Virus record (IMG/VR): IMGVR_UViG_3300021430_000595
Source: a virus
DNA length: 64,000 bases
Strand: one strand, 5' to 3'
Below the pieces are notes generated by a model. It did no database searches. It saw only the letters and a list, made by a program, of their open reading frames with translations, and had not been told where the DNA came from. Positions 10,907 through 64,000 of the stretch are shown in pieces (the stretch's first letter is position 1; each line of letters begins with the position of its first letter). The translations under genes and the position numbers were made by a program.

Positions 10907-11224
10907 ATGGCGAAGAAAATTATAGTTACTGAATCACAATTGAAGAAATTGATTCAACACCAAGCAATGAAAAAATTAAACGAAGGTGTAACTTTCAACG
11001 ATGAAGAATCGATGGGTGATGAACTTAATGTCGATACTGAAGACGGTAAATTCGTTGATGGTGAAGAAATGACAACTGATGAAATGAATACTGAAATGGG
11101 AATGGAAGATGAAATGGGTGATATCAGTCTAAATGAGGGTAAACTTAAATTAAAGGATACCTTTAACAAATTCACAAAGAACCCTATTATCAATAGTTTA
11201 AGTTCTCAAGTTTTGAAAAAATAA
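10907..11224 (+). CDS. acidic protein with VTESQL leader
   Basis: MAKKIIVTESQLKKLI; E/D/M-rich middle. Confidence 0.65.
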   Translation: MAKKIIVTESQLKKLIQHQAMKKLNEGVTFNDEESMGDELNVDTEDGKFVDGEEMTTDEMNTEMGMEDEMGDISLNEGKLKLKDTFNKFTKNPIINSLSSQVLKK

Positions 11225-11307
11225 TAAATTAATTAACCATATTAAAAACTCTCGTACTGAGAGTTTTTTTTTATGCAGTAACCGGTAAATCGAAGTATTT
11301 ATATTAT

Positions 11308-27788: not shown

Positions 27789-27792
27789 AATT

Positions 27793-29058: not shown

Positions 29059-29091
29059 ATATAGTTATATATATAGACTATAAAATACACA

Positions 29092-30369: not shown

Positions 30370-30374
30370 AACAT

Positions 30375-31001
30375 ATGAAATACGTAAATTACAACACAGA
30401 AAAATTTCCATTTAGAAAAATTGTGCAGGAAATTTTAAAACAAGAAAATTTAGAAAAAATCCACGAAGTTCAAAATTATGAATTATTTGTGAGAGGTACT
30501 GACCAATCAACTGAATGGCATAAACTTTATTATTCTGAATTAGATAAATTCTTACCAACATACGTGGAGTTTATTCACGAAGTTATTAAACCTATTTTTG
30601 GTGAGGATATTGTTTATCAAAAAATACCAACATTCAGAACACAATTGGTAAATAATTTAGGTGTATTTGAATTCCATAAAGATAAAACCTACAAACATAA
30701 TACCGAAGAAATAAACTTCTTTTTACCATTTACCGATGCTTACATGTCTAACACAATTTGGGTTGAGTCTGAAGAAGATAAAGGTGACTATTCACCAATG
30801 AACGCTTTGTATGGTCAAGTGGTAATGTGGGATGGTTGTAATTTAAGACACGGTAATAAACAAAACAATACATTAAACACCAGAGTGAGTTGTGATTTCC
30901 GTGTAATTCCTTTGTCAAAATATACAGAAGAAGAGAACGAAGGTACTATATACACTAAAATGAAATTTATTATTGGGGACTACTACGAAGTTACAAAATG
31001 A
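30375..31001 (+). CDS. 2OG-Fe(II) oxygenase (StrG-like)
   Basis: FHKD; INFFLPFT; HGNKQNNT..TRVSCDFR. Confidence 0.7.
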   Translation: MKYVNYNTEKFPFRKIVQEILKQENLEKIHEVQNYELFVRGTDQSTEWHKLYYSELDKFLPTYVEFIHEVIKPIFGEDIVYQKIPTFRTQLVNNLGVFEFHKDKTYKHNTEEINFFLPFTDAYMSNTIWVESEEDKGDYSPMNALYGQVVMWDGCNLRHGNKQNNTLNTRVSCDFRVIPLSKYTEEENEGTIYTKMKFIIGDYYEVTK

Positions 31002-31696
31002 AAATTTTAGTTATTGGTGATGGTCTTCTGGGTTCAGAAATTGTGAACCAAACAGGTTGGGATTATATCTCAAGAAAAAAGAATGGTATTGATTTTACCA
31101 ATATAGACTCATATCAACATATTCTGTACAATTACGACACCATTTTAAATTGTGTTGCATTTACGGAAACGTACAGTGAAGATAGGGATAGTAATCGTGA
31201 AATTAATTACGTTGCTGTTACTAAATTAAGTGATTTTTGTGTAAGTCAAAATAAGAAGTTAATTCACATCTCAACAGATTATGTTTACACAAATTCAATT
31301 AATAACACATCTGAAGATGACATACCTTTAATTTCACAAAATTGGTACACATATTATAAACTCATGGCGGATGAATACATTCAATTAAAGAATGATAATT
31401 TTTTAATATGTAGATGTTCATTCAAACCAAACCCGTTTCCTTATGAAAAAGCGTGGATTAATCACGTCGGTAACTTTGACTATGTAAACAAAATTGCTTA
31501 TATTATCATTAAATTAATCACAAACAATGCAGATGGTTTATATAATGTTGGTACAGAATTGAAGAGTATTTTTGAGTTAGCTAAGTTAACAAATGAAAAT
31601 GTGAAACCAATGTTGAGACCCTCAATTGCACCATCAAACGTGAGTATGAATTTAAATAAACTAAATAACTTTTTAAAAACAATTAATGCAAACTAA
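30998..31696 (+). CDS. RmlD-like NDP-4-keto sugar reductase
   Basis: GDGLLG; HISTDYVY; YTYYK. Confidence 0.8.
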   Translation: MKILVIGDGLLGSEIVNQTGWDYISRKKNGIDFTNIDSYQHILYNYDTILNCVAFTETYSEDRDSNREINYVAVTKLSDFCVSQNKKLIHISTDYVYTNSINNTSEDDIPLISQNWYTYYKLMADEYIQLKNDNFLICRCSFKPNPFPYEKAWINHVGNFDYVNKIAYIIIKLITNNADGLYNVGTELKSIFELAKLTNENVKPMLRPSIAPSNVSMNLNKLNNFLKTINAN

Positions 31697-32696
31697 CGGT
31701 AAATATATTATTCAAGCAACAGGACCTTTATTAACTTATCGTCTTGAATTATTAAGGGAAGCATGTCCTGTTGCGAAAGATTTTTTATTGGTTTTAACCA
31801 ATCAATTTTCATATGATAATTTCTTTAAAGATTTTCATGATTCATTTACATTTGTGATTATGGATGATTACAGAAAAAATCATCCAATAAGTTTAGAATA
31901 TGAGGTGTTTCCTGAATTTATGGATGAAGAAGAGTTCTTGAAGAATATTCACACTTTTTATGGTAACTCAACAGATAGATTTTATCCTTATGACATCCAT
32001 AGATTTATTTTCCCATATTTGATTGAAAATAAGATATTAAACTTTGCATTAGTTGATACCGACTTCATAATGGTTAATGACTTTGATGTGTTAAATGATT
32101 TCTTTACACACATACCACCCGGAACGGTTTATGGTCCTTGGCACGGTGAAGACATTAGTCAAAAACCATTAAAGGATATATTTTGGAAAGAATTACAACC
32201 CAATTTCCCTCAGATTAAATTAGAATCACCATTTTTAAGAACAATTGATGGTTGGATGAGAGCGTTTCATTTCAGAAACCTTGAGGAAATGGAATTACTT
32301 TTTAATATTTGGAACTCAGCTTTAGATAAAGTTTACACAATGGAAACGGAAAAATTACAAGGACAGAATACTGTAATTATTTCATCAACCGAATGGGTTA
32401 TTTCACATATAATGCAGTTTTTTGAACACAACTACGGTTATGGTTTTTATGATTGTTATGAATTTATGAGAGTAAAAAATCATAATATTGAAATTGGTAG
32501 ACATTATACAAGGGTGGAGGATACAATATATGCTGGACCGAGAGAGTGTTGGAAACATTTTAATTTTGATTACTCAGATACAACAACAATCTCTGCGTTT
32601 ATAAAAAATAACAAAGAACCGTTAAGATTATACTATGATGGTCCTTTTAAAAACGTAAATGTAACCGACAAATACGTTTACACAAACTTCAAATAA
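31686..32696 (+). CDS. putative GT-A glycosyltransferase
   Basis: DIHRFIFP...VDTD (DxD); paralogue of 33521. Confidence 0.5.
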   Translation: MQTNGKYIIQATGPLLTYRLELLREACPVAKDFLLVLTNQFSYDNFFKDFHDSFTFVIMDDYRKNHPISLEYEVFPEFMDEEEFLKNIHTFYGNSTDRFYPYDIHRFIFPYLIENKILNFALVDTDFIMVNDFDVLNDFFTHIPPGTVYGPWHGEDISQKPLKDIFWKELQPNFPQIKLESPFLRTIDGWMRAFHFRNLEEMELLFNIWNSALDKVYTMETEKLQGQNTVIISSTEWVISHIMQFFEHNYGYGFYDCYEFMRVKNHNIEIGRHYTRVEDTIYAGPRECWKHFNFDYSDTTTISAFIKNNKEPLRLYYDGPFKNVNVTDKYVYTNFK

Positions 32697-32719
32697 TAAT
32701 AAAACTAAATAAAAACAAA

Positions 32720-33520
32720 ATGGCAAGCAATTTTTTTACAAAATTAGTGAACTTGGTTTCACCCTCTTCAACATCATCAACTGAAGAACCAATTACTTAC
32801 AATTACACGGAAGAAGATTTCATAAAAGTTTTAAAACCATACAATATTTTTCAAAAGAAAAAAAGAATTGGTCCAAATGAGGATGGTGGTTATGTTTGTT
32901 CAGAATTCGTTTTAGAAAACTGTTCGGCATTAATGACATATGGTGTTGGTCACGACATTAGATACGAAGAAGAATTCGTGAGATTATACAACAAACCGGC
33001 ATATCTTTTTGACCACACTTTAGGTTGGAAAGAAGAATTTGAAAGAAACGGTTTAAAATTCATACCGGAAGGTTTGGGAAGTGCGGAAAATTGTAAAGAT
33101 TTTTATGAACACTACCAAAAATACGGTCTAACTGAAAACATCCTACTTAAAATTGATGTTGAAGGTGCTGAATGGGAATTCTTCAAGACCGTAAATGTTG
33201 AGAATCTCAAGAACACCGTAATGGGTATTGTTTTAGAAATCCATTGGATTGATAGTCTTGAAAATAAAAAGAGTTTGGCGGAAATGTTTAATCGTATTTC
33301 ACCATATTTCGTTTTGGAACATACACACGCAAACTCATGGGGATATAATTTTGAACATAATGGAATGACAATCCCTTCAGTTCTTGAACTTTCATTTGTC
33401 AATAAAAAATTCGTACAAAAAATGGAAATTGATACTGCGGATTATCCAATTGAAGGTTTAGATTATTCAAATAACCCAAACATTGAGGATGTTAAATTAG
33501 ATTTCTTAAAAAGTGTATAA
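32720..33520 (+). CDS. FkbM/Methyltransf_22-like SAM methyltransferase
   Basis: RIGPNEDGGY; YGVG; LKIDVEGAEW; HTHAN. Confidence 0.8.
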   Translation: MASNFFTKLVNLVSPSSTSSTEEPITYNYTEEDFIKVLKPYNIFQKKKRIGPNEDGGYVCSEFVLENCSALMTYGVGHDIRYEEEFVRLYNKPAYLFDHTLGWKEEFERNGLKFIPEGLGSAENCKDFYEHYQKYGLTENILLKIDVEGAEWEFFKTVNVENLKNTVMGIVLEIHWIDSLENKKSLAEMFNRISPYFVLEHTHANSWGYNFEHNGMTIPSVLELSFVNKKFVQKMEIDTADYPIEGLDYSNNPNIEDVKLDFLKSV

Positions 33521-34585
33521 ATGATAGCATTAAACGTTTTTGGACCCGCATTAAAATACAGATTGGATTTGTTAAAACAATCTTCGTATGATGTGAGAGA
33601 TAAAATTCACATATTAACTGATAAAGTGTCATATGAAAAGTTTTACACCGAATTCCACAATGACTATGTTTTTTTCTTTGTTGAGGATTACATGTCGGAA
33701 TATGAGTTAAGTGTAAAACATGAAGTAATACCAAATATTTTTGAAAACGAAAAAGACCATTTTGAAAACTCGAATTCGTTTTATAAGAAGACCGATAATT
33801 TCTTTTCATTTGATATCCACAGATTTGTTTTTCCATATTTTATTTCAAAAGGAATTAAGAATTTTGTAATCATTGATAGTGATTTGATATTATCCAACGA
33901 CGAAAATGTTATTGTTGAATTCTTTAACACAATACCGGAAAAAACTTTTTACGCACCAAGTCTTGGTCAAGATTTTAATTTAAATGTGAAACAGAAATTT
34001 TGGGATAATTTAAATAACAATATTATCCCAAAAGATTTCACACTACCAAATGAACTTACATTATTTGATGGGTGGTTAAGAGGTTTTAATTTTGAAACGA
34101 TTGAGGATACTCAGAAATTTTTCGATTTATGGAATGATTCATACTTGGAACTATTGGAACAGAGAAAAAATCCAATTGTGCAAATAACTAAAAATGGAGA
34201 AGGACCATTGATTTGGTCTAATGAATGGATATTTTCACATTGCGTTAAAATATTTGAACAGTGTTACGGATATAATATTGATTACACCATATCTTTTAAT
34301 CCGGGTAATGTTTGTTTACCAAATAAACCAAATATATTATTCGGTAAACATTGTCCAAGACCTGAAGATAATTTGTTTTATGTGGTACAGAAATACGTAG
34401 ACGATAAAGGTGAATATAGATACCCAAGTAGAGGTGCTTGGCATGATTTCAGATTTGATTATGATTGTGAAAGAACAACATCATCTTTTATTCAAAAAAA
34501 TAAACAAGAACTGATTAGATATTACGAAAGTAATGGATTTAAAGTAATAGCAACAAATACCCATATTTATACCGAAATAAAATAA
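33521..34585 (+). CDS. putative GT-A glycosyltransferase (paralogue of 31686)
   Basis: GPALKYRL; DIHRFVFP...IDSD; DGWLRGF. Confidence 0.5.
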   Translation: MIALNVFGPALKYRLDLLKQSSYDVRDKIHILTDKVSYEKFYTEFHNDYVFFFVEDYMSEYELSVKHEVIPNIFENEKDHFENSNSFYKKTDNFFSFDIHRFVFPYFISKGIKNFVIIDSDLILSNDENVIVEFFNTIPEKTFYAPSLGQDFNLNVKQKFWDNLNNNIIPKDFTLPNELTLFDGWLRGFNFETIEDTQKFFDLWNDSYLELLEQRKNPIVQITKNGEGPLIWSNEWIFSHCVKIFEQCYGYNIDYTISFNPGNVCLPNKPNILFGKHCPRPEDNLFYVVQKYVDDKGEYRYPSRGAWHDFRFDYDCERTTSSFIQKNKQELIRYYESNGFKVIATNTHIYTEIK

Positions 34586-35586
34586 TGAAAGTAAATTTAT
34601 ATTACGAATTCCCAAATTCAAGTGCATTAACTAATGGTAGTATATATGTTTCTTGGCCGGTTTTGTTTTCTAAAATCGCAGACATGTTAGTTGAAAAATA
34701 TCCAACTATTGAATTTGAGAAAATACATAGATGGTCAGGTAATATGTCATCAAAAAATCCATGGTCAACCGAATTGGGTGTTCCATTTGATAAAAACACA
34801 CACTCAAGTATTAGTGACACCATATTCATCATCGAAAACGAAGAGAACAAAAAATATTTTGTAATAAGTCTATGGGATAAAGGTTACTATGAATTAAGTG
34901 CATGGTCGGACTTAGAGGAAAAATGTGTTGAGATATTTTCACATGCGGGAATGCATGTTAGTGATTACAGTTATGAATTATCACCGTTAAAATATACCCC
35001 ATTAAACATGCCGGTAATATTAAATGGTGAAGAAGATATTATTAATGAACTGTATTATCAAAATTTAAAAAATGACACAAGAATAATCCCTGATAAATTA
35101 TTCTTTCAATCATCAAGACCATATTTGTTTAGAGAGTATATTCACTACAATGACAATAGGTTTAATAGTGTTATTGGTTATGATAGAAACATGAGAGATT
35201 GGTTAATAAAATTATCCCAATACAAAATAAATATGGATATCAATTGTGTTGCTGAACCTTCAGGTAGAATAAGTCAAATTTTGGGTTTAGGAACTGCATT
35301 AGTGAGACCTAACACGAGACACCAGTTTCAAAATCCTTTAATACCTGATTATCATTACGTTGAGGTTAAACATGACTTTTATGACCCAACAAAATACGAA
35401 ACGATAAACTCATTTTATAAATCACTATCAGATGCGTATATTGATGCATTTGAAAGAGTTAAAAATGATGAAGAGTTTTTAAGATATGTTTCAAAAAATG
35501 GGAGGGAGTATTGGGAAAATTACTGTGTTGGTTCAAATTGGTTAAAAACCACGGTTGGTCTGATTAATTTGGATAAATTGATGTAG
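34585..35586 (+). CDS. putative GT-B glycosyltransferase (GT90/Glyco_trans_1_2-like)
   Basis: KINMDI...R..QILGLG...LIPDYHYV...VSKNGREYW; ends TAG TAA. Confidence 0.55.
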   Translation: MKVNLYYEFPNSSALTNGSIYVSWPVLFSKIADMLVEKYPTIEFEKIHRWSGNMSSKNPWSTELGVPFDKNTHSSISDTIFIIENEENKKYFVISLWDKGYYELSAWSDLEEKCVEIFSHAGMHVSDYSYELSPLKYTPLNMPVILNGEEDIINELYYQNLKNDTRIIPDKLFFQSSRPYLFREYIHYNDNRFNSVIGYDRNMRDWLIKLSQYKINMDINCVAEPSGRISQILGLGTALVRPNTRHQFQNPLIPDYHYVEVKHDFYDPTKYETINSFYKSLSDAYIDAFERVKNDEEFLRYVSKNGREYWENYCVGSNWLKTTVGLINLDKLM

Positions 35587-35646
35587 TAATGCTTTACAAA
35601 TATCATAAAACAATGTAAATTTCCATACATAAAGTACGTCTGATGT

Positions 35647-36546
35647 ATGGATTCCACAATAGAAGAAAAATTTAATTCAATACCCAAAGATTTTTTTAAT
35701 CTTAAAATTGTTCATCACGGTGCTGTGGTGAACACAATCTTTGCTGCTGGTTATTTTAACGATAGAGTTATTAAACTCAGTAAAGATATGATTTCGTTAC
35801 AGGTTAATGATGCGTATGGTGACGGTATTAGTAAAATCAACAAAATAAACTTTGAGAATCCTAACCAAGTTGTCAGTATAAGAGTACCTGTGTATGAAAA
35901 ATGGTTATCAAAACCAAGAGAGTTATTGAAGTACATCAAAGAAAATTATAAAACTTTACCCGAATATATTCTTTACACAGATGGTAGTGATGTTGCAATT
36001 CTAAATAATATTGACAACCCAAAAGAAATTTTAGATTACTACCAATGTGATGTTTTGTTTAATTGTGAACCAAATTACATGCACACCGGATTTGGTTTAC
36101 CTTCACACGGATATTATAACCCTCTTTATGAAAAAGAGATTTACGTTTACGAAAATTTAAATGTAGAGAAATATGGAATTGTACATAAAAGGTCAATAAA
36201 TGCGGGTGTGTTTTTAGGTAAGAAAGATTATGTAATCACCATGTTAGAAGAGGCAATGAAATACATGGAAGATGACCATAATAAAGGTTTTCCGTATGGT
36301 TGTTTAGATGACCAATGTATGTTTAGATGGTTACAGAACCAACATTTTGATAAAATTTCGGTGGATGTTTATAATAATTATTTTTTGTTTGGGTATCCAA
36401 AATCAATTGAGGCCGATGAGAGTGATTGGGAACATTTTCAATTTTTCAAAAAGAATTATGAACATATATATCTATCAAAGTACCCACAATTACTTAATAA
36501 AGAAATAAACTTTTTTGATAAAATAAAAAACATCTTCAAATCATAA
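35647..36546 (+). CDS. PLOD/LH3-type glycosyltransferase domain protein
   Basis: ILYTDGSDV; VLFNCE; INAGVFLG; DDQ. Confidence 0.65.
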   Translation: MDSTIEEKFNSIPKDFFNLKIVHHGAVVNTIFAAGYFNDRVIKLSKDMISLQVNDAYGDGISKINKINFENPNQVVSIRVPVYEKWLSKPRELLKYIKENYKTLPEYILYTDGSDVAILNNIDNPKEILDYYQCDVLFNCEPNYMHTGFGLPSHGYYNPLYEKEIYVYENLNVEKYGIVHKRSINAGVFLGKKDYVITMLEEAMKYMEDDHNKGFPYGCLDDQCMFRWLQNQHFDKISVDVYNNYFLFGYPKSIEADESDWEHFQFFKKNYEHIYLSKYPQLLNKEINFFDKIKNIFKS

Positions 36547-36553
36547 ACCACAA

Positions 36554-37417
36554 ATGAAAGTAAATAATATTTTCAAAAAAATTTTCGGTTCATCATCCAA
36601 ACCAATTATAAGTTTAACTACAATACCAACAAGATTGGTTAGTGAATACAGTTATGACATAAAATACTGTTTAGAATCTCTATTAAATCAAACTTATGAT
36701 GATTATGAGGTTCATTTTAATATTCCACACATTTATAAAAAAACAAATGAGGAATATATTATTCCTGAATGGTTAGTAAAATTAGAACAAGAAAATAAAA
36801 AACTAAAGATTTTCAGAACCGAAGATTATGGTACGGTGACTAAGTCATTGCCAACCATTTTAAGAGTAACAAATCCGGAAACAATTATAATTGTTGTTGA
36901 CGATGATTTAGTTTATAATTCAGAATTAGTTTCAGAACATGTAAAAAATCAATCAAAATGGGTGGATAATCCTGTCGGTTATGATGGTATGAGGTCAAGA
37001 AATGAAGATGGTACATTCGCATCACATTTTAGAGATAGTAGAGATTACTATTTTTCCGCAACTCATAGGGACTCAAGAGTCGATATTTTACAACACTATA
37101 AAAGTATATCATACAAAAGACGATACTTTGAAAATGATTTTGAAAATTACATTTTAGAAAACAACCATTGGAATGATGACCTATTAATGTCCGCATATTT
37201 TGCAGGTAAAAAAGTAGATAGAATTGTTACATTCTATGAAAAAGATAAGGTTTGTGAAACATACGAAGAATGGCAGAACCACGTCGGAATATCTTTCCCA
37301 ATAATCAGACATACACAACATAGAAGTGATGAGGGGTGTAATGTTGAGAGAGCAAAAAATGGTGGTGTTGGTGAGGATAAATTTTATAAACTTATTGATA
37401 ATTGTTATAGAAAATAA
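36554..37417 (+). CDS. GT2-like glycosyltransferase
   Basis: ISLTTIPTRL; DYGTVTK; IVVDDD; NDD. Confidence 0.7.
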   Translation: MKVNNIFKKIFGSSSKPIISLTTIPTRLVSEYSYDIKYCLESLLNQTYDDYEVHFNIPHIYKKTNEEYIIPEWLVKLEQENKKLKIFRTEDYGTVTKSLPTILRVTNPETIIIVVDDDLVYNSELVSEHVKNQSKWVDNPVGYDGMRSRNEDGTFASHFRDSRDYYFSATHRDSRVDILQHYKSISYKRRYFENDFENYILENNHWNDDLLMSAYFAGKKVDRIVTFYEKDKVCETYEEWQNHVGISFPIIRHTQHRSDEGCNVERAKNGGVGEDKFYKLIDNCYRK

Positions 37418-37419
37418 AA

Positions 37420-40400
37420 ATGATGGAAAATAATATAGATTATTCAGGGAACAAACAAGTTTTTACTAGCTTGTACGAACATTTTGGTTTCGGTAGTGAG
37501 GAAAGTAGGTCAGGTCCTGGTTCTACTTTGGAAGAAACTAAAGATTTAAGAAATAAACTTGTTGATTTAATCAAAGAAAAAAACATTAAATCAATTGTAG
37601 ACATACCTTGCGGTGATTGGAATTGGATGAAAGAAATTTCAGATAACTTCGAAAGTTACACCGGTGGTGATATTGTTGATGAGTGTGTTAGAGTCAACAA
37701 TGAAAAATACGGAAACGATAAAATTAGATTCGTCAATTTTGATTTATTAAGAGATGAAATTCCTGAAGCGGATTTATTGATTGTTAGGGATGTTATTGGT
37801 CATTACCCATTATTAGAAGGAAATACTATCCTTAATAATATTTTGAAATCAAATTGTAAGTACCTTCTAACAACCACAACGTACAATATTTCAAACGGTA
37901 CAGGTTTATCGGACTACAAAAACAACGATATTGATGTGGGTAGACACTACATGGTAAATCTAATGGATTATCCTTTTAGTTTACCAAGACCTATTGATTA
38001 TATTGAAGAACCACCAAGAATTGACAAATACGAAACAGGTGAAAGAAAAGTAATGGCATTATGGGATTTAACTGCATTAAAACCATTATACCAAATGAAA
38101 CTGAACACTGAGGTGTTAGAAGAAATTGTTATTAGAAACAACACGGATAAGAAAAGTTCATTTTATACTGAAATATATGGTGCGTTGTTTAATGAGTTTA
38201 GAGAGAAAAATTTTAATTTACTAGAAATCGGTTTAGGTACTGCAATACCTGATGTCCCATCAACATTTATTGGTTGGGCATCACAGTATGAGGATTTTAA
38301 ACCATCATCTTGTTTACGTGTTTGGAAAGAGTATTTTCCAAATGCAAATATTCACGGCATCGATATTCAAGAGGATTGTATCATATCTGAAGACAGAATT
38401 AATACATACCTTTTAGATTCAACCAATAAGGAAAAGTGTGATGAACTAATGACGGATTTGAGATTCGATATCATTATTGATGACGGTTTACACACTGCGG
38501 AAGGTCAATATAAAACATTCCTAAACTTTTTCCATAGACTAAATGACAATGGTTTATACATCATTGAAGATATTGGTGGTGGGGGTGATGGGTTAAATGT
38601 CTTTTTAGATTTCCACAACGAGCTTAAAGACATATTAAATCAACATGAATATTTTTGGGATTATGATATCTTAGTTATAAAGAAGAATAACTCTAATAAT
38701 GGTTGTCACATGGGTGAATTTTCACACATGAAAAGATTTAATGATGGATTTTTATCTTTCATTAATTCACAAAAAAATGCATGTCCTTGTGATAGTAAGA
38801 TTGAAGAATTTTTTATTCAAGAAGAAAAAAGAAAAAATGGGGTAGTGGAGACTAAACCCGAAATAAAAACAGGATTTGAAGTAAATAAAAATCTAACAAT
38901 TGTAACGGGGTTATGGAATATCGGTAGACCCGGTAGAGATTTTTCACACTACATTGAACATTTCAAAATGTTCTTGGACATCCCCCAGAATTTATTTATT
39001 TATATTCCAAAAGAATATGAGTATTTGGTTTGGGAAAAAAGAAGTAAGGAAAATACATTCGTTAAAATCTATGAATTAGATGATGTAAAAAATTTATACC
39101 AACCTTTTTGGAACAAAACACAAGAAATTAGAACTAACCCAAATTGGTTTAATCAAGCGGGATGGTTACCTGGTTCACCACAAGCACATTTAGAGTGGTA
39201 CAATCCAATTGTTCAATCAAAAATGTTCATGTTAAACGATGCAACAATATGGAATCCATTTAATACCGAATACTTTTTTTGGTTGGATGCCGGTATAACA
39301 AACACAGTACCTCATAGTCATTTAACTGAAAATAACATATTGGATAAATTACCAAATTACGGTAACCCATTTTTATTTTTAAGTTACCCATATCAAGCGG
39401 AGACTGAAATCCATGGATTCACATTCTCGGATATGAACAGAATTGCTCGTACTGAAGTAAAATATGTTTGTAGAGGTGGTTTATTTGGTGGTCACAAACA
39501 TCAAATTAACGAAGCTAACGCAACATACTATTCAATGTTAACAAACACGTTAAATTCGGGTTTAATGGGAACAGAAGAAAGTGTCTTCACCTTGATGTCA
39601 TATAATGAACCTCATTTATATAGAAGATTCGAATTAGATGGTAACGGTTTAATTGTTAAATTCACCCAAGCAGTTGTTGATAATAATGTAACTATAGTTG
39701 AACCAACCAAAACCGAAGCAAAGAAGTTTATAAAATACACTGACAGAGATGTTGCGAGATTTAAAACAAATCTTTATGTCTTGACATTCAATTTCCCTGA
39801 ACAATTGTTACATACGATTAATTCAATGAAAAAAACCCCTGAATGGCTAACTAAACCTAAACTTTTTCTTTTGGATAATTCAACAATTGGGGAGTCTAAA
39901 GAATTAAATAAACAAATTGCAAAAGAACATAATTTTGAATACATTGATTTGGGTCGTAACACCGGTATTTGTGGTGGAAGACAAGCCGCTGCTGAACATT
40001 TTCATGAATCCGATGCTGACTTCATGTTCTTCTTTGAAGATGATATGACATCAAATCCACCCGAATTTGAGGGACAGTTCTGTAGAAATGGTTTTAGAAA
40101 ATACATACCAAATCTATACAACTTGGTTCACAGAATAATGTTAAAAGAAGATTTCGATTTTCTAAAACTTTCATTCACTGAGGTTTATTTTGATAACGAC
40201 AAACAATGTTCTTGGTATAATGTACCACAACACATTAGAACAAGAGATTGGCCAAATTACGATAAATTACCTGTTTCGGGACTTGACCCTAACGTACCAT
40301 TAACTAATTTCAAAAATATTAGAAATATGGATGGGTTATCATATATTGACGGTGATGTTTATTATGCAAACTGGCCAATGATTGTGAGTAAACAGGGTAA

Positions 40401-40572
40401 TTATAAGATGTTTATTGAAACAAAATGGGCTAACCCATTTGAACAAACATGGATGTCACACATTTATCAACAAACTAAAGAAGGTAAAATAAAACCGGCA
40501 TTATTATTGGCTTCACCTATTTGGCACGATAGAATAAAACACTATCAACCAAATGAAAGAAGAGAAAACTAA
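37420..40572 (+). CDS. four-domain fusion: methyltransferase, methyltransferase, HtrL/YibB-like, GT-A
   Basis: SGPGS..DIPCGD; LLEIG..DIIIDDGLH; LTIVTGLWNIGR..FWLDAG..GTEE; LLDNS..FFEDD. Confidence 0.75.
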   Translation: MMENNIDYSGNKQVFTSLYEHFGFGSEESRSGPGSTLEETKDLRNKLVDLIKEKNIKSIVDIPCGDWNWMKEISDNFESYTGGDIVDECVRVNNEKYGNDKIRFVNFDLLRDEIPEADLLIVRDVIGHYPLLEGNTILNNILKSNCKYLLTTTTYNISNGTGLSDYKNNDIDVGRHYMVNLMDYPFSLPRPIDYIEEPPRIDKYETGERKVMALWDLTALKPLYQMKLNTEVLEEIVIRNNTDKKSSFYTEIYGALFNEFREKNFNLLEIGLGTAIPDVPSTFIGWASQYEDFKPSSCLRVWKEYFPNANIHGIDIQEDCIISEDRINTYLLDSTNKEKCDELMTDLRFDIIIDDGLHTAEGQYKTFLNFFHRLNDNGLYIIEDIGGGGDGLNVFLDFHNELKDILNQHEYFWDYDILVIKKNNSNNGCHMGEFSHMKRFNDGFLSFINSQKNACPCDSKIEEFFIQEEKRKNGVVETKPEIKTGFEVNKNLTIVTGLWNIGRPGRDFSHYIEHFKMFLDIPQNLFIYIPKEYEYLVWEKRSKENTFVKIYELDDVKNLYQPFWNKTQEIRTNPNWFNQAGWLPGSPQAHLEWYNPIVQSKMFMLNDATIWNPFNTEYFFWLDAGITNTVPHSHLTENNILDKLPNYGNPFLFLSYPYQAETEIHGFTFSDMNRIARTEVKYVCRGGLFGGHKHQINEANATYYSMLTNTLNSGLMGTEESVFTLMSYNEPHLYRRFELDGNGLIVKFTQAVVDNNVTIVEPTKTEAKKFIKYTDRDVARFKTNLYVLTFNFPEQLLHTINSMKKTPEWLTKPKLFLLDNSTIGESKELNKQIAKEHNFEYIDLGRNTGICGGRQAAAEHFHESDADFMFFFEDDMTSNPPEFEGQFCRNGFRKYIPNLYNLVHRIMLKEDFDFLKLSFTEVYFDNDKQCSWYNVPQHIRTRDWPNYDKLPVSGLDPNVPLTNFKNIRNMDGLSYIDGDVYYANWPMIVSKQGNYKMFIETKWANPFEQTWMSHIYQQTKEGKIKPALLLASPIWHDRIKHYQPNERREN

Positions 40573-54794: not shown

Positions 54795-54869
54795 TGGTGG
54801 CTCCGGTGGGGTTCGAACCCACGACTATCGGTTTTAGAGACCGTAATGTTACCACTACACTACGGAGCC
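54795..54869 (-). tRNA. amber suppressor tRNA (CUA)
   Basis: GGCTCCG/CGGAGCC-A-CCA; anticodon arm ACGGT-CTCTAAA-ACCGA; normal D and T arms. Confidence 0.88.
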
Positions 54870-54871
54870 AT

Positions 54872-54945
54872 TGGAGGTCGGGGATGGATTTAAACCACCG
54901 TAAAAAAGCTTGCGGCTTTTCACCTAATCGCTCGGTCACCCGACC
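54872..54945 (-). tRNA. atypical tRNA-Cys(GCA)
   Basis: U73-CCA; loop CCGCAAG (C33); T-loop TTTAAAT. Confidence 0.65.
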
Positions 54946-55015
54946 ATTTGTGATTGACAATATCTCTACCATCAATCACAGTACAATATTAGAGATTAGT
55001 TATGATATCTCCAAA

Positions 55016-55354
55016 TTATTTTTCAAGATTTTTTTCAAAATCTTCTTTTTTAGTTTTCTTCTTGGGTACATAACCTCTCTTAACTCGTTCTTTCTGAATT
55101 CTTTTCTTAAAACTTCTGTCCTGAAAATAATTTCGCAATTCTCTTGATGTTTCTTCGTAGGTTTTTTTAATCTCATCGAAAAGTTTCACTTTTTCTTCAT
55201 CAGTCATTTTATTTGTTCTTTTTTCTCTCATACATTCCCACCATTCATTTGAATATCGTTTGTGTTCGGTGCATTCACCTAATAACTTATGAATCTTGTT
55301 CGAGAAAGATGATTTAATCATCATTGTTGGGTTGTGTTGTGTTGTCTTTTTCAT
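55016..55354 (-). CDS. basic hypothetical protein
   Basis: 112-aa ORF immediately downstream of the amber-containing gene. Confidence 0.6.
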   Translation of the reverse strand: MKKTTQHNPTMMIKSSFSNKIHKLLGECTEHKRYSNEWWECMREKRTNKMTDEEKVKLFDEIKKTYEETSRELRNYFQDRSFKKRIQKERVKRGYVPKKKTKKEDFEKNLEK

Positions 55355-55356
55355 TT

Positions 55357-55611
55357 TTAAAAAATTTTAGCTGTTATTATGTTATTATTTTCCTCAATCT
55401 CCAAATTCGCTTTGAATTTTATACTCCCCTTGGTATGAGGGTTATCGGGAGTTTCTTTTGTTGAGAATCCCACACCCGGTGAGACATCAACGTGATGAAC
55501 ATAATAAGTGTCGCCACGACATTTCACAACCCACATTGGGATTGTTGGGTCTTCTAAATGTTTCTTGTTGAAGTGAAAAATAATTTCACATTTTTTGTTA
55601 ATCTACTTCAT
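55357..55611 (-). CDS. 84-aa protein with in-frame UAG at codon 3 (missed by ORF track)
   Basis: ATG AAG TAG ATT AAC...; MK*INKKCEIIFHFNKKHLEDPTIPMWVVK...HTKGSIKF...KIF; fills the operon gap exactly. Confidence 0.7.
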
Positions 55612-55615
55612 GATT

Positions 55616-55975
55616 TTAAAGATTAAATTGTTTATTGTTATTATATTCCTTTAAGGATAAAGGCAATGAGGATGTGTATCTTCTCGTACTTTCAGTTTCG
55701 AGAAAACAAATTGATGTTAGTTGATTCCCGATATCGGGTTCAATAAAGTGAGACACAGGGATACCTGAATCTTCTAACTTAAAAAGTAATTCTTGTAATT
55801 TTTTTTCTGAATCGATGGATAATGAGATGAGAAAACTGTTGTTCCATCGTTTCGACAATTCGGGGTGTTCTAAAATGAACTGAGAGATTGCATGTCCCGA
55901 TTGTGCAATTTGATACCCGGGTTTTAAGTCATTGCGGGTTACGACTACGAGTCTGTTAATCTAATGTCTTTTCAT
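55616..55975 (-). CDS. PTH2-like peptidyl-tRNA hydrolase with in-frame UAG at codon 5
   Basis: MKRH*INRLVVVTRNDLKPGYQIAQSGHA...EPDIGNQLTSI...LPL; the N-terminal PTH2 motif lies upstream of the ORF-track start. Confidence 0.75.
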
Positions 55976-56029
55976 GATGTTATAAATATTACGGTACAAA
56001 GATAAAGAAAGTTTTTTAAAAAACAAGCT

Positions 56030-56470
56030 TTATACAAAATTTTTTATTTCTCTTTCAGAATCCCTCTTTTTAATTGTTTCTCTTTTATCATAGAGTTTCT
56101 TACCTCTAGCTAATGCAATTTCAACCTTAACCATACCATTATCACTAAAAAACAAACGATATGGTATGATTGTGATATTATCGGTCAACTCATCTTTTAA
56201 CTTAGTTAATTCTTTTTTAGTTAAAAGAAGTTTTCTATCTCTTGTTGGAGAATGAGAGTAATGCGAACCATCACTTTGTATATTCATGTTCTTAATGAAT
56301 AATTCATGTCCATTGAAAACACAAAACGAATCCGTTAACGATGCTTTACCGGAACGAATAGATTTAACCTCACTACCGGTTAATTGAATACCAGAAATTT
56401 CGGTTCGAATAAATGAATACTCGAACCTTGATTTCCTATTTGTAATTGTTATGTTGGTTTTTAGTTTCAT
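56030..56470 (-). CDS. smpB: SsrA-binding protein
   Basis: NRKSRFEY; GIQLTGSEVKSIR; RDRKLLL; RGKKLYDKRETIK. Confidence 0.95.
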   Translation of the reverse strand: MKLKTNITITNRKSRFEYSFIRTEISGIQLTGSEVKSIRSGKASLTDSFCVFNGHELFIKNMNIQSDGSHYSHSPTRDRKLLLTKKELTKLKDELTDNITIIPYRLFFSDNGMVKVEIALARGKKLYDKRETIKKRDSEREIKNFV

Positions 56471-56931
56471 TAGATTCTAACTAAGTGGTTTGCACTATAT
56501 GTTACCATTGCACCTTCGTGTTTGTATCTTACCTTGTAACCCATACCTTCAACCAAACCAACCGCTTGTCTTAAAACTTTGTTTGATTTGTATCTTGGGT
56601 CAGGGTTCAAATCGATATCAATCCAAGTTGCTTTTGGTAAATCGTTGTTTCTTAAAAGTTCTGCAACTTCAACCGCTTTCCAAACCTCACTCATAAGTCT
56701 ATATGATGTGTCCCTCTCAAATGGGGTCGTTTCTTTTGTACAAAGTACGTGTGCGCCTTTACCTTTAGTGTACAGAGCAATAACCACCCCATAAACAGTT
56801 TTTGAATTACTGAATGATTGTGAATCTGAACCAATCAGAATCTCAACATCGGATTTATCCGCTAGGTAGTCTTTGATGTAGGTGATAACATCTGTTATCG
56901 GTTTTCCGTACAATGTTTTAAACGTTTTCAT
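56470..56931 (-). CDS. RNase H-like YkuK/DUF458 protein
   Basis: LIGSDSQ; GKGA; RLMSEV; IDIDLN; YKSN. Confidence 0.8.
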   Translation of the reverse strand: MKTFKTLYGKPITDVITYIKDYLADKSDVEILIGSDSQSFSNSKTVYGVVIALYTKGKGAHVLCTKETTPFERDTSYRLMSEVWKAVEVAELLRNNDLPKATWIDIDLNPDPRYKSNKVLRQAVGLVEGMGYKVRYKHEGAMVTYSANHLVRI

Positions 56932-56962
56932 GTCATATTCTTTACAATTAATAAATACTTAT

Positions 56963-57051
56963 TGGCGGAGAGAGAGGGGCTCGAACCCTCGCGGCTGTGA
57001 CACCCTATCAGTTTAGCAAACTGACCCCTTCACCAACTTGGGTATCTCTCC
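56963..57051 (-). tRNA. tRNA-Ser(GCU)
   Basis: cloverleaf, long variable arm, CCA. Confidence 0.9.
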
Positions 57052-57226
57052 ATTGAGTTTTTCTGTACTCTTTCCAATTTCTAATTCCTCGATGCTTCTT
57101 CCAAAAGTTACATCCACTATGAGGTCCACAAATTGGACAAAGTCCCTCATAACTGTCTAACATTTGTCTCTTGAGTATTTTATACACTCTTGAGTTTGTT
57201 GTTGATTCTAGTTTTTCTTTTTTCAT
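57008..57226 (-). CDS. small Cys-containing basic protein (3' end overlaps tRNA-Ser)
   Basis: CPICGPHSGC; RNWKEYRKTQW. Confidence 0.55.
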   Translation of the reverse strand: MKKEKLESTTNSRVYKILKRQMLDSYEGLCPICGPHSGCNFWKKHRGIRNWKEYRKTQWRDTQVGEGVSLLN

Positions 57227-57270
57227 TTTTCCTGTAGATTAATCTACAAGAAGTCGTATGTTTTTTTCAT
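57223..57270 (-). promoter_or_regulatory. amber-containing leader ORF MKKTYDFL*INLQEK* coupled (ATGA) to the 57226 gene
   Basis: TAG ATT AAT inside hairpin TTCTTGTAGA-TTAA-TCTACAGGAA. Confidence 0.55.
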
Positions 57271-60384: not shown

Positions 60385-61079
60385 CTTACCACTATAGTTT
60401 TCACTACCATCTCTGTTTGTGGTCTGGACTTTCTCTTAACCCTCATCTTAAAATGTTAGGGCTCTTCCCGTTAAGTCTCTACACGTTTCTTAAATGTTTT
60501 TCCCTCTATACGTATCTGTTTGTGAATGACAATTAGGACAAACTATTCGTAGATTTTCCAATCTATGATTTGTTCTATCACCATCGATATGGTCAAGTTC
60601 GAAACTTAATTTTTTACCATTCCAATCTTTAATTCCACAAACCTCACATTCCTCATTTTTTATTCCTTCACTAATCAACCTCAGTCTAAGTTTGTTAGTT
60701 TGATAATGTGGATGCGACCCCATCAAAATTTCTTTAGTTGGGATTTTACTTAGAGGAGAAGGTTTTGACGAACCTTTAGCGCCTTGATTTGGTTTATACA
60801 CACCAAGTTTTTTCGCTTTACGAATAAACGTGTTGTAATGTAATCCAAGTCTTATTGCCGCCTTAGCCATCGTTAACTCTTCTCTACATGCTTTGATAAT
60901 TTCACCATCTTCTATTTTTTTCATGAAACATTTGTTTCACTATAAATATATACACAATGGAAAAAGTATCTAACATGTCTACACATTTAAGACTTCGCTC
61001 GGGATTACCATTTTAAAGGTTTCCCCGAATTTGAGAAGTTCTACATTAAGTGTTTCCACCTACGCACTCAAATTTGTTT
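60385..61079 (-). mobile_element. 695-nt group I intron with HNH ORF
   Basis: guide TTTGAGT; AAATTCGGGGAA/CCCGAGCGAAG; GTAGAGACTT/AAAGTCC; terminal G. Confidence 0.9.
60490..60924 (-). CDS. intron-encoded HNH homing endonuclease
   Basis: CEVCG; ELDHIDGDRTNHRLENLRIVCPNCHSQT. Confidence 0.9.
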   Translation of the reverse strand: MKKIEDGEIIKACREELTMAKAAIRLGLHYNTFIRKAKKLGVYKPNQGAKGSSKPSPLSKIPTKEILMGSHPHYQTNKLRLRLISEGIKNEECEVCGIKDWNGKKLSFELDHIDGDRTNHRLENLRIVCPNCHSQTDTYRGKNI

Positions 61080-61174
61080 AAGTCTTGCGTGTCTACCTGT
61101 TTCACCACTCGGGCATTTACTAAACCAACATGTCAAAGAACCACAGTACAAAGATAAGGAAGAAATCTTTAAAA

Positions 61175-63855: not shown

Positions 63856-63926
63856 TGGAATATTTGGGATTCGAACCCATACCTCCCACCGTCTAGCGGT
63901 TGCACATCCTTATGTGCTTTTATCCC
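63856..63926 (-). pseudogene. tRNA-like element with shrunken anticodon arm
   Basis: normal D and T arms, but ACCG-CTAGA-CGGT has a 5-nt loop. Confidence 0.55.
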
Positions 63927-63929
63927 TTG

Positions 63930-63999
63930 TGGACCACGTGGGAATCGAACCCAAACATTCTCTTTGCAAAAGAGACGACCTGCCTTCGGTATCGCGCCC
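63930..63999 (-). tRNA. tRNA-Ala(UGC), irregular acceptor
   Basis: loop TTTGCAA; G3:U70. Confidence 0.7.
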
Positions 64000-64000
64000 A

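What the first reader, a model, noticed from the sequence alone, without database searches (positions are those of the whole stretch)
54795..57270. Amber-gated gene cluster: suppressor tRNA(CUA) plus three frames with early UAG-AUU-AAY
Seen: a well-formed tRNA(CUA) lies within 2.5 kb of three reading frames with an in-frame UAG near the start, all in the same context: ATG AAG TAG ATT AAC (55611, 84-aa gene), ATG AAA AGA CAT TAG ATT AAC (55975, PTH2-like, whose RxDL..G..AQ..HA motif is reached from this ATG only by read-through) and ...TTG TAG ATT AAT (57270 leader). Long ORFs elsewhere are intact in code 11 and almost all stop with TAA or TGA; the TAG stops I found are 35586 (backed by TAA) and 58689. 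Established: some Bacteroidota phages recode UAG broadly using suppressor tRNAs. Inference: here UAG acts as a local switch, tying a peptidyl-tRNA hydrolase and neighbours to suppressor availability or low RF1 activity. Alternative: stop followed by re-initiation at AUU.
Basis: partly seen in the sequence, partly recalled or inferred. Interest (0 to 1): 0.88.

Follow-up and report, generated by a model that had tools for sequence, protein, structure and literature searches.

The report
Phage genes gated by amber-suppressor tRNA
A large phage that otherwise uses the normal genetic code puts a UAG stop codon a few codons into two neighbouring small genes and carries its own UAG-reading tRNA about 0.5-0.75 kb downstream; dozens of distantly related phages keep the same arrangement, so these proteins are probably made mainly when that tRNA overrides the stop.

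Summary

**Confirmed.** The PTH2-like gene (55975-55616, -) and an 84-codon gene of unknown fold, "gene A" (55611-55357, -), both start ATG, then 1-3 sense codons, then TAG-ATT-AAC. A tRNA(CUA) lies at 54869-54795 (-).

**Conserved in other phages.**
- 72 of 80 viral loci with a gene A relative have TAG just before the conserved region, and 63 have an in-frame ATG shortly upstream.
- 61 of the 80 carry a same-strand tRNA(CUA) within 3 kb.
- All 25 distinct PTH2-like gene starts show the same gate.
- The gating stop is never TAA or TGA.
- In hosts that use Shine-Dalgarno sites, the site sits 6-8 nt before the leader ATG.
- 13 of 74 gated starts have a codon after TAG that cannot initiate translation.

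**Not general recoding.** The genome uses the standard code: 11 long ORFs end in TAG, including the family-B DNA polymerase.

**Rejected.** The third frame (57270) is an 8-codon ORF whose stop is TGA in the nearest relative.

**Best reading.** Suppressor-dependent translation of two specific genes, with possible weak re-initiation at AUU as a leak. What gene A does is unknown, and no paper describing this module was found.

This scan had already noted the same module on other genomes. I reached it independently here.

The parts
54795..54869 (-). Elongator-type tRNA with anticodon CUA (amber suppressor), CCA encoded
   Evidence: ARAGORN gives anticodon cta. Rfam tRNA 66.9 bits. Cloverleaf minimum-free-energy fold. 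G1-C72 is paired and the anticodon stem lacks three G:C pairs, so it is not initiator-like (sequence). 52 distinct tRNA(CUA) sequences lie beside gene A or PTH2-like relatives.
55357..55611 (-). Gene A: ATG-AAG leader, in-frame TAG (55605-55603), ATT (55602-55600), then an 81-residue conserved protein of unknown function; stop TAA at 55359-55357
   Evidence: Translation. 107 related viral stretches found, 80 loci kept. 72 of 80 have TAG upstream, 63 of 80 have the ATG leader, and 61 of 80 have a tRNA(CUA) within 3 kb. AlphaFold2 model with pLDDT 91 and no solved-fold match. No Pfam or PHROG family.
55616..55975 (-). PTH2-like gene: ATG-AAA-AGA-CAT leader, in-frame TAG (55963-55961), ATT (55960-55958), then a 114-residue Pth2-fold protein; stop TAA at 55618-55616
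   Evidence: Pfam PF01981, 25.7 bits against a cut-off of 23. A family profile matches solved Pth2 2zv3 over its full length, E = 2.3e-8. The amber gate is present in 25 of 25 distinct starts among relatives and in cultured Tenacibaculum phage pT24.
55016..55354 (-). Conserved 112-aa Lys-rich ORF with an ordinary ATG start, between gene A and the tRNAs; same operon order in the relatives that have it
   Evidence: tblastn finds it directly after gene A in L004-L021, L025 and L090, at 38-85% identity. No Pfam or PHROG family.
54872..54945 (-). tRNA-Cys(GCA)-derived tRNA-like RNA, 2 nt upstream of the suppressor: U73 discriminator, C33, and a 32:38 Watson-Crick pair that leaves an invariant CGCAA pentaloop
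   Evidence: Rfam tRNA 44 bits; ARAGORN misses it. 98% of cells paired and 12 of 21 pairs with compensatory changes, including all 6 pairs of the anticodon arm. About 15 loci carry it, in most cases directly beside the tRNA(CUA).
57244..57270 (-). Third 'frame' of the finding: an 8-codon ORF ending in TAG inside the palindrome TAGATTAATCTA. Not part of the amber-gated set.
   Evidence: After the TAG the frame stops after 6 codons. Relative L004 has TGA at this place. The downstream 72-aa ORF is not conserved.

Best explanation
The unit is a suppressor-dependent translation gate.

How it works: ribosomes start at the leader AUG of the PTH2-like gene and of gene A. In phages of Shine-Dalgarno-using hosts this AUG has a correctly spaced Shine-Dalgarno site; this phage has an A-rich leader and no such site. 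After 1-3 sense codons the ribosome meets UAG. If RF1 wins, only a di- to tetrapeptide is released. If the phage's own tRNA(CUA), encoded downstream on the same strand, wins, some amino acid is inserted into the unstructured N-terminal tail and the full protein is made. Output of both proteins therefore follows the amount of processed, charged suppressor relative to RF1.

The A (usually AUU) after UAG is the 3' context that favours amber suppressors over RF1. It may also allow a weak suppressor-independent leak by re-initiation.

Shown: the anatomy, its conservation, the exclusive use of TAG as the gating stop, the linkage to the tRNA, and the standard code elsewhere in the genome.

Inferred: that the tRNA is charged and decodes these UAGs.

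Inferred at about 0.35: the purpose. Both proteins would act on the suppressor's own business, namely ester-linked peptidyl- or aminoacyl-tRNA and the consequences of read-through. The gate would then match their dose to suppressor activity, or feed back on it, as the in-frame UGA of prfB does for RF2. Supporting context is the phage's SmpB gene and a tmRNA-like gene nearby.
For: 1. Gene A family. 72 of 80 viral loci have TAG as the in-frame stop directly before the conserved region. 63 of 80 have ATG 1-6 codons upstream. 61 of 80 have a same-strand tRNA(CUA) within 3 kb, and in many loci it is the only tRNA there.

2. PTH2-like family. 25 of 25 distinct starts have ATG, 1-3 sense codons, then TAG, down to 22-40% protein identity.

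3. No gated start uses TAA or TGA. All 8 loci with TAA or TGA upstream have an ordinary ATG start. Yet TAG ends only 11 of 152 long ORFs in this genome.

4. Across all loci only these two families recur as ATG-(5 codons or fewer)-TAG-ORF, with 49 and 26 distinct members. Every other candidate is a singleton. In this genome only these two genes qualify.

5. A Shine-Dalgarno-like core lies 6-8 nt before the leader ATG in 29 of 49 gene A starts (32 of 49 within 6-13 nt).

6. The codon after TAG cannot initiate in 13 of 74 starts. The base after TAG is A in 69 of 74. A at +4 is the published preference for amber suppression (PMC6266110).

7. The codon before TAG is not conserved. The amber lies outside the folded core: the first strand of the model begins at residue 5.

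8. Cultured phages show it too. Rhizobium phage RHph_I1_18 has ATG..ATG TAG AAC, then gene A, then a tRNA(cta) 12 nt further on. Tenacibaculum phage pT24 has ATG AAA TAG ATA, then a PTH2-like domain, with a tRNA(CUA) 2.5 kb upstream.

9. Gene A keeps a tRNA(CUA) neighbour in 11 of the 17 loci where gene A itself has no detected gate. That argues for a functional link and not only a regulatory one.
Against: - There are no expression, aminoacylation or protein data. Read-through is inferred from comparative anatomy only.
- ATT, ATA or ATC follows TAG in 61 of 74 starts, in two unrelated protein families. Several ungated homologues start with Met at or next to that position. A role for AUU as a weak start codon is therefore not excluded.
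- The phage's family-B DNA polymerase ends TAG ATT ACG, followed by 57 codons of junk-like sequence before the next TAA or TGA. Efficient suppression in that same context would damage an essential enzyme. Either suppression is weak, or it is timed, or it is favoured specifically at very early codons.
- The PTH2-like family lacks the aligned GKGK lysine loop and has a shortened DAGxTQ loop compared with solved Pth2, so its activity is uncertain.
- Gene A has no recognisable fold or family, so the proposed purpose rests on context alone.
Confidence: 0.72

Rival explanations
1. Start-stop uORF with re-initiation. AUG-X-UAG is a minimal upstream ORF. After termination the ribosome restarts on the adjacent near-cognate AUU, AUA or AUC, giving low, possibly IF3-sensitive expression. 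The tRNA(CUA) would be irrelevant or only modulatory.
For: - ATT, ATA or ATC follows TAG in 61 of 74 distinct starts, in two unrelated families.
- Ungated homologues begin with Met at or next to that position, for example L043, L079 and P0005-P0006.
- The Shine-Dalgarno site serves the leader ATG, which this model also needs.
Against: - 13 of 74 starts have AAC, AAT, CAA, CAC, AGA, GTA or GTT after TAG.
- The stop is always TAG although TAA is by far the commonest stop.
- 61 of 80 loci carry a same-strand tRNA(CUA) within 3 kb. This model does not predict that.
- ATG, GTG or TTG is never found directly after the TAG, although re-initiation would favour them.
Confidence: 0.15
2. Genome-wide TAG reassignment ('code 15', TAG read as Gln), as in crAss-like and Lak phages. 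The two early TAGs would be just two of many sense TAGs.
For: - A phage tRNA(CUA) is present.
- TAG is the rarest stop.
- PTH2-like relatives occur in TAG-recoded Lak phages.
Against: - Coding density is 0.87 under code 11, 0.89 with TAG read as sense, and 0.89 in the control with TGA read as sense.
- 11 long ORFs end in TAG, including PolB with a junk-like extension behind it.
- Long ORFs throughout the window (the sugar-modification cluster and other unassigned genes) are intact under code 11.
- Only two genes in the genome carry an early in-frame TAG.
Confidence: 0.03
3. Artefact or decay: sequencing errors or nonsense mutations in dying genes, or TAGATTAAY as a DNA-level site such as a promoter or operator that merely overlaps gene starts.
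For: - The three sites share 9 nt, and one of them is a perfect palindrome.
- Public gene calls truncate these genes at an internal Met.
Against: - The same TAG is present in independent assemblies from dozens of metagenomes and in two cultured phage genomes, while the proteins stay conserved.
- The flanks of the TAG vary except for the A or ATT that follows it.
- The 9-mer is not clearly enriched.
- The palindromic copy is not conserved.
Confidence: 0.02

Closest known systems
Stop-codon-recoded phages with phage suppressor tRNAs (TAG read as Gln, 'code 15'; crAss-like, Lak and others; Borges et al. preprint 10.1101/2021.08.26.457843; PMC9523058)
   Same: A phage-encoded tRNA(CUA) in a standard-code host makes expression of some phage genes depend on suppression. 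That work proposes the same regulatory logic of expression timed by suppressor availability.
   Different: In those phages tens of genes, mainly structural and lysis genes, carry many internal TAGs, and TAG is no longer a stop. Here exactly two small non-structural genes carry one TAG each, at codon 3-5, and TAG remains a terminator elsewhere.
'Orphan' suppressor tRNAs of standard-code jumbo phages, e.g. Xanthomonas phage XacN1 (PMC5852040)
   Same: A standard-code phage with a large tRNA set that includes tRNA(CUA).
   Different: The XacN1 authors read through the 18 terminal amber stops and found no target. Here the targets are early in-frame ambers that gene callers miss. Gene A was not detected in XacN1 by tblastn.
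prfB (RF2) autoregulation through an early in-frame UGA (PMC12421855 appeared in search but was not read; the mechanism is from my own knowledge)
   Same: A stop codon placed early in an ORF acts as a sensor of decoding capacity and sets the output of a translation factor.
   Different: prfB escapes by +1 frameshifting and senses its own product. Here the escape is in-frame suppression by a dedicated tRNA, and feedback by the products is only a hypothesis.
Synthetic amber-suppressor gates, e.g. the feed-forward 'leak dampener' (PMC7969014)
   Same: An early UAG plus a co-expressed suppressor tRNA makes expression conditional.
   Different: That is an engineered circuit in E. coli. This is a natural module conserved in many phage lineages, and its two cargo proteins are themselves linked to translation or to the suppressor tRNA.
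Archaeal/eukaryotic-type peptidyl-tRNA hydrolase Pth2 (PF01981; solved 2zv3, 1q7s)
   Same: A full-length profile match. The RxDL, Q..HA and acidic-loop positions line up.
   Different: The GKGK lysine loop is absent, and the DAGxTQ loop is replaced by a shorter invariant EPD...T. Activity and substrate are unknown. The gene is amber-gated.

Membership tests
Code-15 (TAG-recoded) phage | Many genes, especially late ones, carry internal in-frame TAGs | tested here: not met
   Only two genes in the 142 kb have an early in-frame TAG before a conserved ORF. Long ORFs across the window are intact under code 11.
Code-15 (TAG-recoded) phage | Coding density rises specifically when TAG is read as sense | tested here: not met
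   0.87 under code 11, 0.89 with TAG as sense, 0.89 in the TGA-as-sense control.
Code-15 (TAG-recoded) phage | TAG is no longer used as a terminator | tested here: not met
   11 of 152 ORFs of 100 aa or more end in TAG, including the family-B DNA polymerase.
Code-15 (TAG-recoded) phage | Phage-encoded tRNA(CUA) | tested here: met
   54795-54869 (-).
Pth2 peptidyl-tRNA hydrolase (PF01981) | Sequence or profile match above the family threshold over the whole domain | tested here: met
   25.7 bits against a cut-off of 23. Profile A3 against 2zv3: E = 2.3e-8, positions 4-102 aligned to residues 2-114.
Pth2 peptidyl-tRNA hydrolase (PF01981) | Conserved active-site loops: the Lys of the GK(G)K loop and the Asp of the DAGxTQ loop | tested here: inconclusive
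   The Lys loop falls in a 2-residue gap. The Asp aligns with the invariant E74 of EPD, and the TQ loop is shortened by 4 residues.
Pth2 peptidyl-tRNA hydrolase (PF01981) | Hydrolysis of peptidyl-tRNA | not testable with these tools
   Needs an enzyme assay.
Elongator nonsense-suppressor tRNA | Canonical cloverleaf with a 7-nt anticodon loop, U33 and anticodon CUA | tested here: met
   Loop CUCUAAA. Rfam 66.9 bits.
Elongator nonsense-suppressor tRNA | Charged by an aminoacyl-tRNA synthetase and able to compete with RF1 at UAG | not testable with these tools
   The nearest phage tRNAs are only 64-68% identical, so no identity can be assigned.
Initiator tRNA reading UAG as a start codon | 1:72 mismatch and three G:C pairs in the anticodon stem | tested here: not met
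   G1-C72 is paired; the anticodon stem is ACGGU/ACCGA.
Start-stop uORF with re-initiation | A usable (near-)cognate start codon directly after the stop | tested here: inconclusive
   AUU, AUA or AUC in 61 of 74 starts; a non-initiator codon in 13 of 74; never AUG, GUG or UUG.
Start-stop uORF with re-initiation | The identity of the stop codon does not matter | tested here: not met
   Always TAG, never TAA or TGA.
Autoregulatory early stop codon (prfB type) | In-frame stop within the first codons of a translation-related gene | tested here: met
   Codon 5 of the PTH2-like gene and codon 3 of gene A.
Autoregulatory early stop codon (prfB type) | The gene product changes how its own stop codon is decoded | not testable with these tools
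   No functional data.

The most novel reading that the evidence does not exclude
The tRNA(CUA) plus gene A cassette, joined in one clade by the PTH2-like enzyme, ORF112 and a tRNA-Cys-derived RNA that cannot decode normally, could be a portable, self-sensing translational circuit. Its proteins would act directly on the competition between suppressor and RF1. They might hydrolyse or protect the suppressor's ester bond, or bind RF1, the ribosome or the tRNA. UAG reading in the infected cell would then be held at a set point, high at early 'privileged' ambers and low at gene ends. That would be a natural counterpart of prfB autoregulation built around a dedicated tRNA.
Probability: 0.2. Interest if true: 0.9.

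Novelty: new variant of a known kind. Interest (0 to 1): 0.8.

Why it matters
Suppressor tRNAs in phages that use the standard code have been a puzzle. The XacN1 authors looked for targets and found none (PMC5852040).

This module supplies natural targets: two conserved gene families with a UAG at codon 2-6.

It also explains why they were missed. Gene callers start these genes at an internal Met or skip them:
- The gene A homologue in RHph_I1_18 is unannotated.
- The PTH2-like gene of pT24 is annotated from an internal ATG.
- Many database entries for gene A begin at family-profile position 24 (residue 23 of the window's protein, the Met of the conserved PMW), i.e. at that internal Met.

The module shows a third state between 'standard code' and 'recoded genome': gene-specific, tRNA-gated expression. 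It may be the seed from which full TAG recoding evolves.

It gives a compact natural part (leader, UAG-A context and tRNA) for conditional expression.

It points to an unknown, highly conserved protein that is probably tied to tRNA or termination biology. Two cultured phage-host pairs make it testable.

Tried and rejected
- **Global motif.** TAGATTAAY and its 1-mismatch variants are not clearly enriched.
- **Third frame at 57270.** Rejected.
- **DNA similarity of the region to GenBank phages.** Only tRNA hits.
- **Fold of gene A.** Foldseek against PDB gave no match at E of 0.001 or better; the best was 0.42. VIA wide search gave a best Z of 3.7 (3qwn, 56 residues, rmsd 4.5), with scattered ADP-ribosyltransferase and OB-like rows at Z 2-3. 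None is significant.
- **C-terminal domain of the long form.** Only generic ferredoxin-like, ACT or RRM rows at Z 5-6.4. BFVD returned only an uncharacterised relative.
- **Family libraries.** Pfam and PHROGs give nothing for gene A. The ESM Atlas gave no usable hit.
- **Complex prediction, PTH2-like with gene A.** No verdict. This is not evidence either way.
- **Neighbour-gene tally around long-form loci.** No constant partner other than the tRNA(CUA). T4-type Gp23 capsid genes lie nearby in 6 cases.
- **Release-factor domain in the genome.** None found, but the record is only about 45% complete.
- **PTH2-like gene in RHph_I1_18.** None found.
- **tRNA identity by similarity to the phage's other tRNAs.** No close parent; 68% or less.
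- **Two short-pattern searches on pT24.** Uninformative.
- **RNA model R1.** Built with the anticodon helix one column out of register, so it was discarded and replaced by R2.
- **Promoter and terminator scan.** At background level.
Full report
**What is there.**
All genes in 52.6-64 kb lie on the - strand. This stretch includes 27 tRNA genes found by ARAGORN and one more found only by Rfam. Read 5' to 3' on the - strand, the region runs:
- an RNaseH-like gene (56931-56470);
- SmpB (56470-56030; Pfam E = 1.4e-47);
- a PTH2-like gene (55975-55616);
- an 84-codon gene I call gene A (55611-55357);
- a 112-aa ORF (55354-55016);
- a tRNA-like RNA (54945-54872);
- tRNA(CUA) (54869-54795).

The PTH2-like gene reads ATG AAA AGA CAT TAG ATT AAC. 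Gene A reads ATG AAG TAG ATT AAC. In both, the conserved protein starts right after the TAG, and no ATG, GTG or TTG lies between the TAG and the conserved core. The Pfam PTH2 match begins at residue 4 counted from the ATT.

**The genome uses the standard code.**
- The record is a 142,412-bp IMG/VR contig with 32.5% GC. CheckV rates it about 45% complete.
- ORFs of 100 aa or more end in TAA 118 times, TGA 23 times and TAG 11 times.
- Greedy coding density is 0.87 under code 11. It is 0.89 with TAG read as sense, and also 0.89 in the control with TGA read as sense.
- TAG ends the family-B DNA polymerase (genome 115251-118148). Behind that TAG lie 57 codons of junk-like sequence.
- A genome-wide scan for ATG, 0-5 sense codons, TAG, then an ORF of 50 codons or more returns only the PTH2-like gene and gene A as plausible proteins without an early canonical start.

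**Conservation of the gate in gene A.**
A scan of IMG/VR with gene A found 107 related stretches, of which 80 loci were kept.
- In 72 of the 80 the in-frame stop directly before the conserved region is TAG.
- In 63 an in-frame ATG lies 1-6 codons upstream.
- 61 loci carry a tRNA(CUA) on the same strand within 3 kb. In many it is the only tRNA in the 6-kb locus, and in some it is as close as about 30 nt.
- The 8 loci with TAA or TGA upstream all have an ordinary ATG start.

Collapsed to distinct sequence contexts, 49 of 58 have the ATG leader:
- 36 of the 49 are exactly ATG-NNN-TAG.
- The codon after TAG is ATT in 34 of 49, and its first base is A in 45 of 49.
- The codon before TAG is not conserved.
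- 29 of the 49 have a Shine-Dalgarno-like core 6-8 nt before the leader ATG (32 within 6-13 nt).

Cultured Rhizobium phage RHph_I1_18 carries an unannotated copy at 70% identity. It is preceded by ATG AGT GAG TTC ATG TAG AAC and followed 12 nt later by an annotated tRNA-Pyl(cta).

**Conservation of the gate in the PTH2-like gene.**
- Every relative found next to gene A has ATG, 1-3 sense codons, then TAG. That is 25 of 25 distinct contexts, with ATT following in 19 and A following in 24. Protein identity falls as low as 22-40%.
- The gate persists in loci where gene A itself has a normal start: L022-L025, L027, L029-L032 and L043.
- Cultured Tenacibaculum phage pT24 has ATG AAA TAG ATA followed by a PTH2-like domain. 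GenBank annotates that gene from an internal ATG. A tRNA(CUA), labelled tRNA-Sup in the record, lies 2.5 kb upstream on the same strand.

**Specificity.**
Across all fetched loci, candidates of the form ATG-(5 codons or fewer)-TAG-ORF cluster into exactly two families: gene A with 49 distinct members and PTH2-like with 26. Everything else is a singleton, mostly with an early canonical start.

**Mechanism.**
The observations that decide it are these:
- The gating stop is always the codon read by the co-encoded tRNA, although TAA dominates as a terminator.
- The Shine-Dalgarno site serves the leader ATG.
- 13 of 74 distinct gated starts have a codon after TAG that cannot initiate (AAC, AAT, CAA, CAC, AGA, GTA or GTT).
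- ATG, GTG and TTG never follow the TAG.

Because the leader is in frame, any decoding of UAG by the tRNA necessarily yields the full protein. The tRNA is an elongator type: G1-C72 is paired and the anticodon stem has no run of three G:C pairs. It therefore does not start translation at UAG.

The A after UAG matches the published preference of amber suppressors for A at +4 (PMC6266110).

That ATT in particular is kept in two unrelated proteins remains unexplained. It may be a stronger context signal. It may be a back-up near-cognate start giving a leak. Several ungated homologues begin with Met at or next to that position, which fits either reading.

The early position has three consequences, which I infer:
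- The aborted product is only a di- to tetrapeptide.
- The inserted residue sits in an unstructured tail, since the first strand begins at residue 5 of the AlphaFold2 model (pLDDT 91). Any amino acid would therefore do, and the cassette can work in different hosts.
- Early ambers may be read through more easily than gene-terminal ones. That would reconcile the gate with TAG-ended essential genes such as PolB.

**What the proteins are.**
PTH2-like:
- A profile of 24 relatives matches solved Pth2 (2zv3) over its full length, E = 2.3e-8.
- The family lacks the GKGK lysine loop and has a shortened acidic loop (invariant E74-P75-D76...T82). It is a Pth2-fold protein of uncertain activity.

Gene A:
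- Strongly conserved. F9, N12, K13, P22, W24, G30, Y34, T48, K49, T51, T57 and K58 are invariant.
- It has no Pfam or PHROG family and no solved-fold match.
- A profile search of 1.84 billion representative proteins found 180 clusters. Many start at profile position 24, the internal Met (residue 23 of the window's protein). Some begin M-x-Q-I, as if called under code 15.
- It comes in three architectures: about 80 aa alone; about 185 aa with a ferredoxin-like C-terminal domain and an acidic tail; and about 175 aa with an N-terminal helical extension and no amber, as in Atu_ph07 and Phosso.
- Gene A keeps a tRNA(CUA) neighbour in 11 of the 17 loci without a detected gate on gene A. The link therefore looks functional, not only regulatory.

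**Purpose (hypothesis, about 0.35).**
The gate makes the dose of two tRNA- or termination-related proteins follow suppressor activity. They might clean up after read-through. The phage also encodes SmpB and a tmRNA-like gene. Or they might feed back on the suppressor, as prfB does for RF2.

**The third frame.**
ATG plus 7 sense codons then TAG at 57270-57244 is followed by only 6 more codons before a TGA. Its motif is the palindrome TAGATTAATCTA. The nearest relative has TGA at that place, and the ORF behind it is not conserved. It does not belong to the set.

**Novelty.**
Full-text searches found TAG-recoded phages, synthetic suppressor gates, and the explicit statement that XacN1's CUA suppressors have no known target. 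They found no description of this module.

Earlier notes of this scan on other genomes reach the same reading. I derived it independently before consulting them. Here I add:
- the two cultured examples;
- the Shine-Dalgarno spacing and the count of non-initiator codons;
- the rejection of the third site;
- the PolB counter-example;
- the variant Pth2 active site;
- the tRNA-Cys-derived companion RNA.

Noticed in passing
window 54872-54945 (-): A tRNA-like RNA sits 2 nt upstream of the suppressor. It derives from tRNA-Cys(GCA): it has the U73 discriminator and GCA in the loop. But it has C33, and a covarying 32:38 pair that leaves an invariant CGCAA pentaloop on a 6-bp stem, so it cannot present a normal anticodon loop. 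About 15 related loci carry it, in most cases directly beside the tRNA(CUA). Ordinary tRNA-Cys genes in other loci score lower with the same model. Its function is unknown.
   Followed up: partly
window 49401-49823 (-) and 49218-49432 (-): A tmRNA-like gene scores 33.5 bits, below Rfam's gathering score of 47. It has a typical GGGGGUGA 5' end and a tag frame ending ...KVAA then a stop. Its 3' part abuts or overlaps a group I intron (68.7 bits, above threshold). Together with SmpB at 56030-56470 this suggests a phage-encoded trans-translation system whose tmRNA gene is interrupted by an intron.
   Followed up: partly
genome 115251-118148 (outside the window; locus L101 452-3349): The family-B DNA polymerase ends TAG ATT ACG, the same 3' context as the gated genes. 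57 junk-like codons follow before the next TAA or TGA. Efficient suppression would extend this essential enzyme.
   Followed up: partly
window 55016-55354 (-): A Lys-rich 112-aa ORF with an ordinary ATG start is conserved directly after gene A in the AT-rich clade (38-85% identity). It belongs to no known family and is probably part of the same operon.
   Followed up: partly
GenBank LC168164.1 (pT24) 194083-195036; MN988519.1 (RHph_I1_18), about 10999-11247 (reverse strand): Public annotations miss the gated starts. BPT24_235 of pT24 is annotated from an internal ATG, which cuts off the PTH2-like domain's N-terminus. The gene A homologue of RHph_I1_18 is not annotated at all.
   Followed up: yes
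window 60905-61089 (-): A second, weak group I intron match (29.2 bits, below the gathering score of 50) lies inside the tRNA array.
   Followed up: no
window 63856-63926 (-) and 63930-64000 (-): Two further weak tRNA-model matches (24.6 and 22.6 bits, below threshold) at the window edge. The second is cut by the window end.
   Followed up: no
window 26523-40572 (+): A large sugar-modification cluster: two GlcNAc-type glycosyltransferases, a DegT-type aminotransferase, and a 1050-aa protein combining HtrL/YibB, glycosyltransferase family 2 and weak methyltransferase matches.
   Followed up: no
whole genome, gene starts: Only 2 of 99 long ORFs have a Shine-Dalgarno-like core upstream, against a background of 6%, and the leaders are A-rich. 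This fits a Bacteroidota-type host, and a related gate occurs in a Tenacibaculum phage.
   Followed up: partly
window 923, 2571, 11478, 56393: The window differs from the genome copy laid in the Python box at four single bases (A/G, C/T, T/C, A/G). None touches the TAGs, the leaders or the tRNAs.
   Followed up: yes
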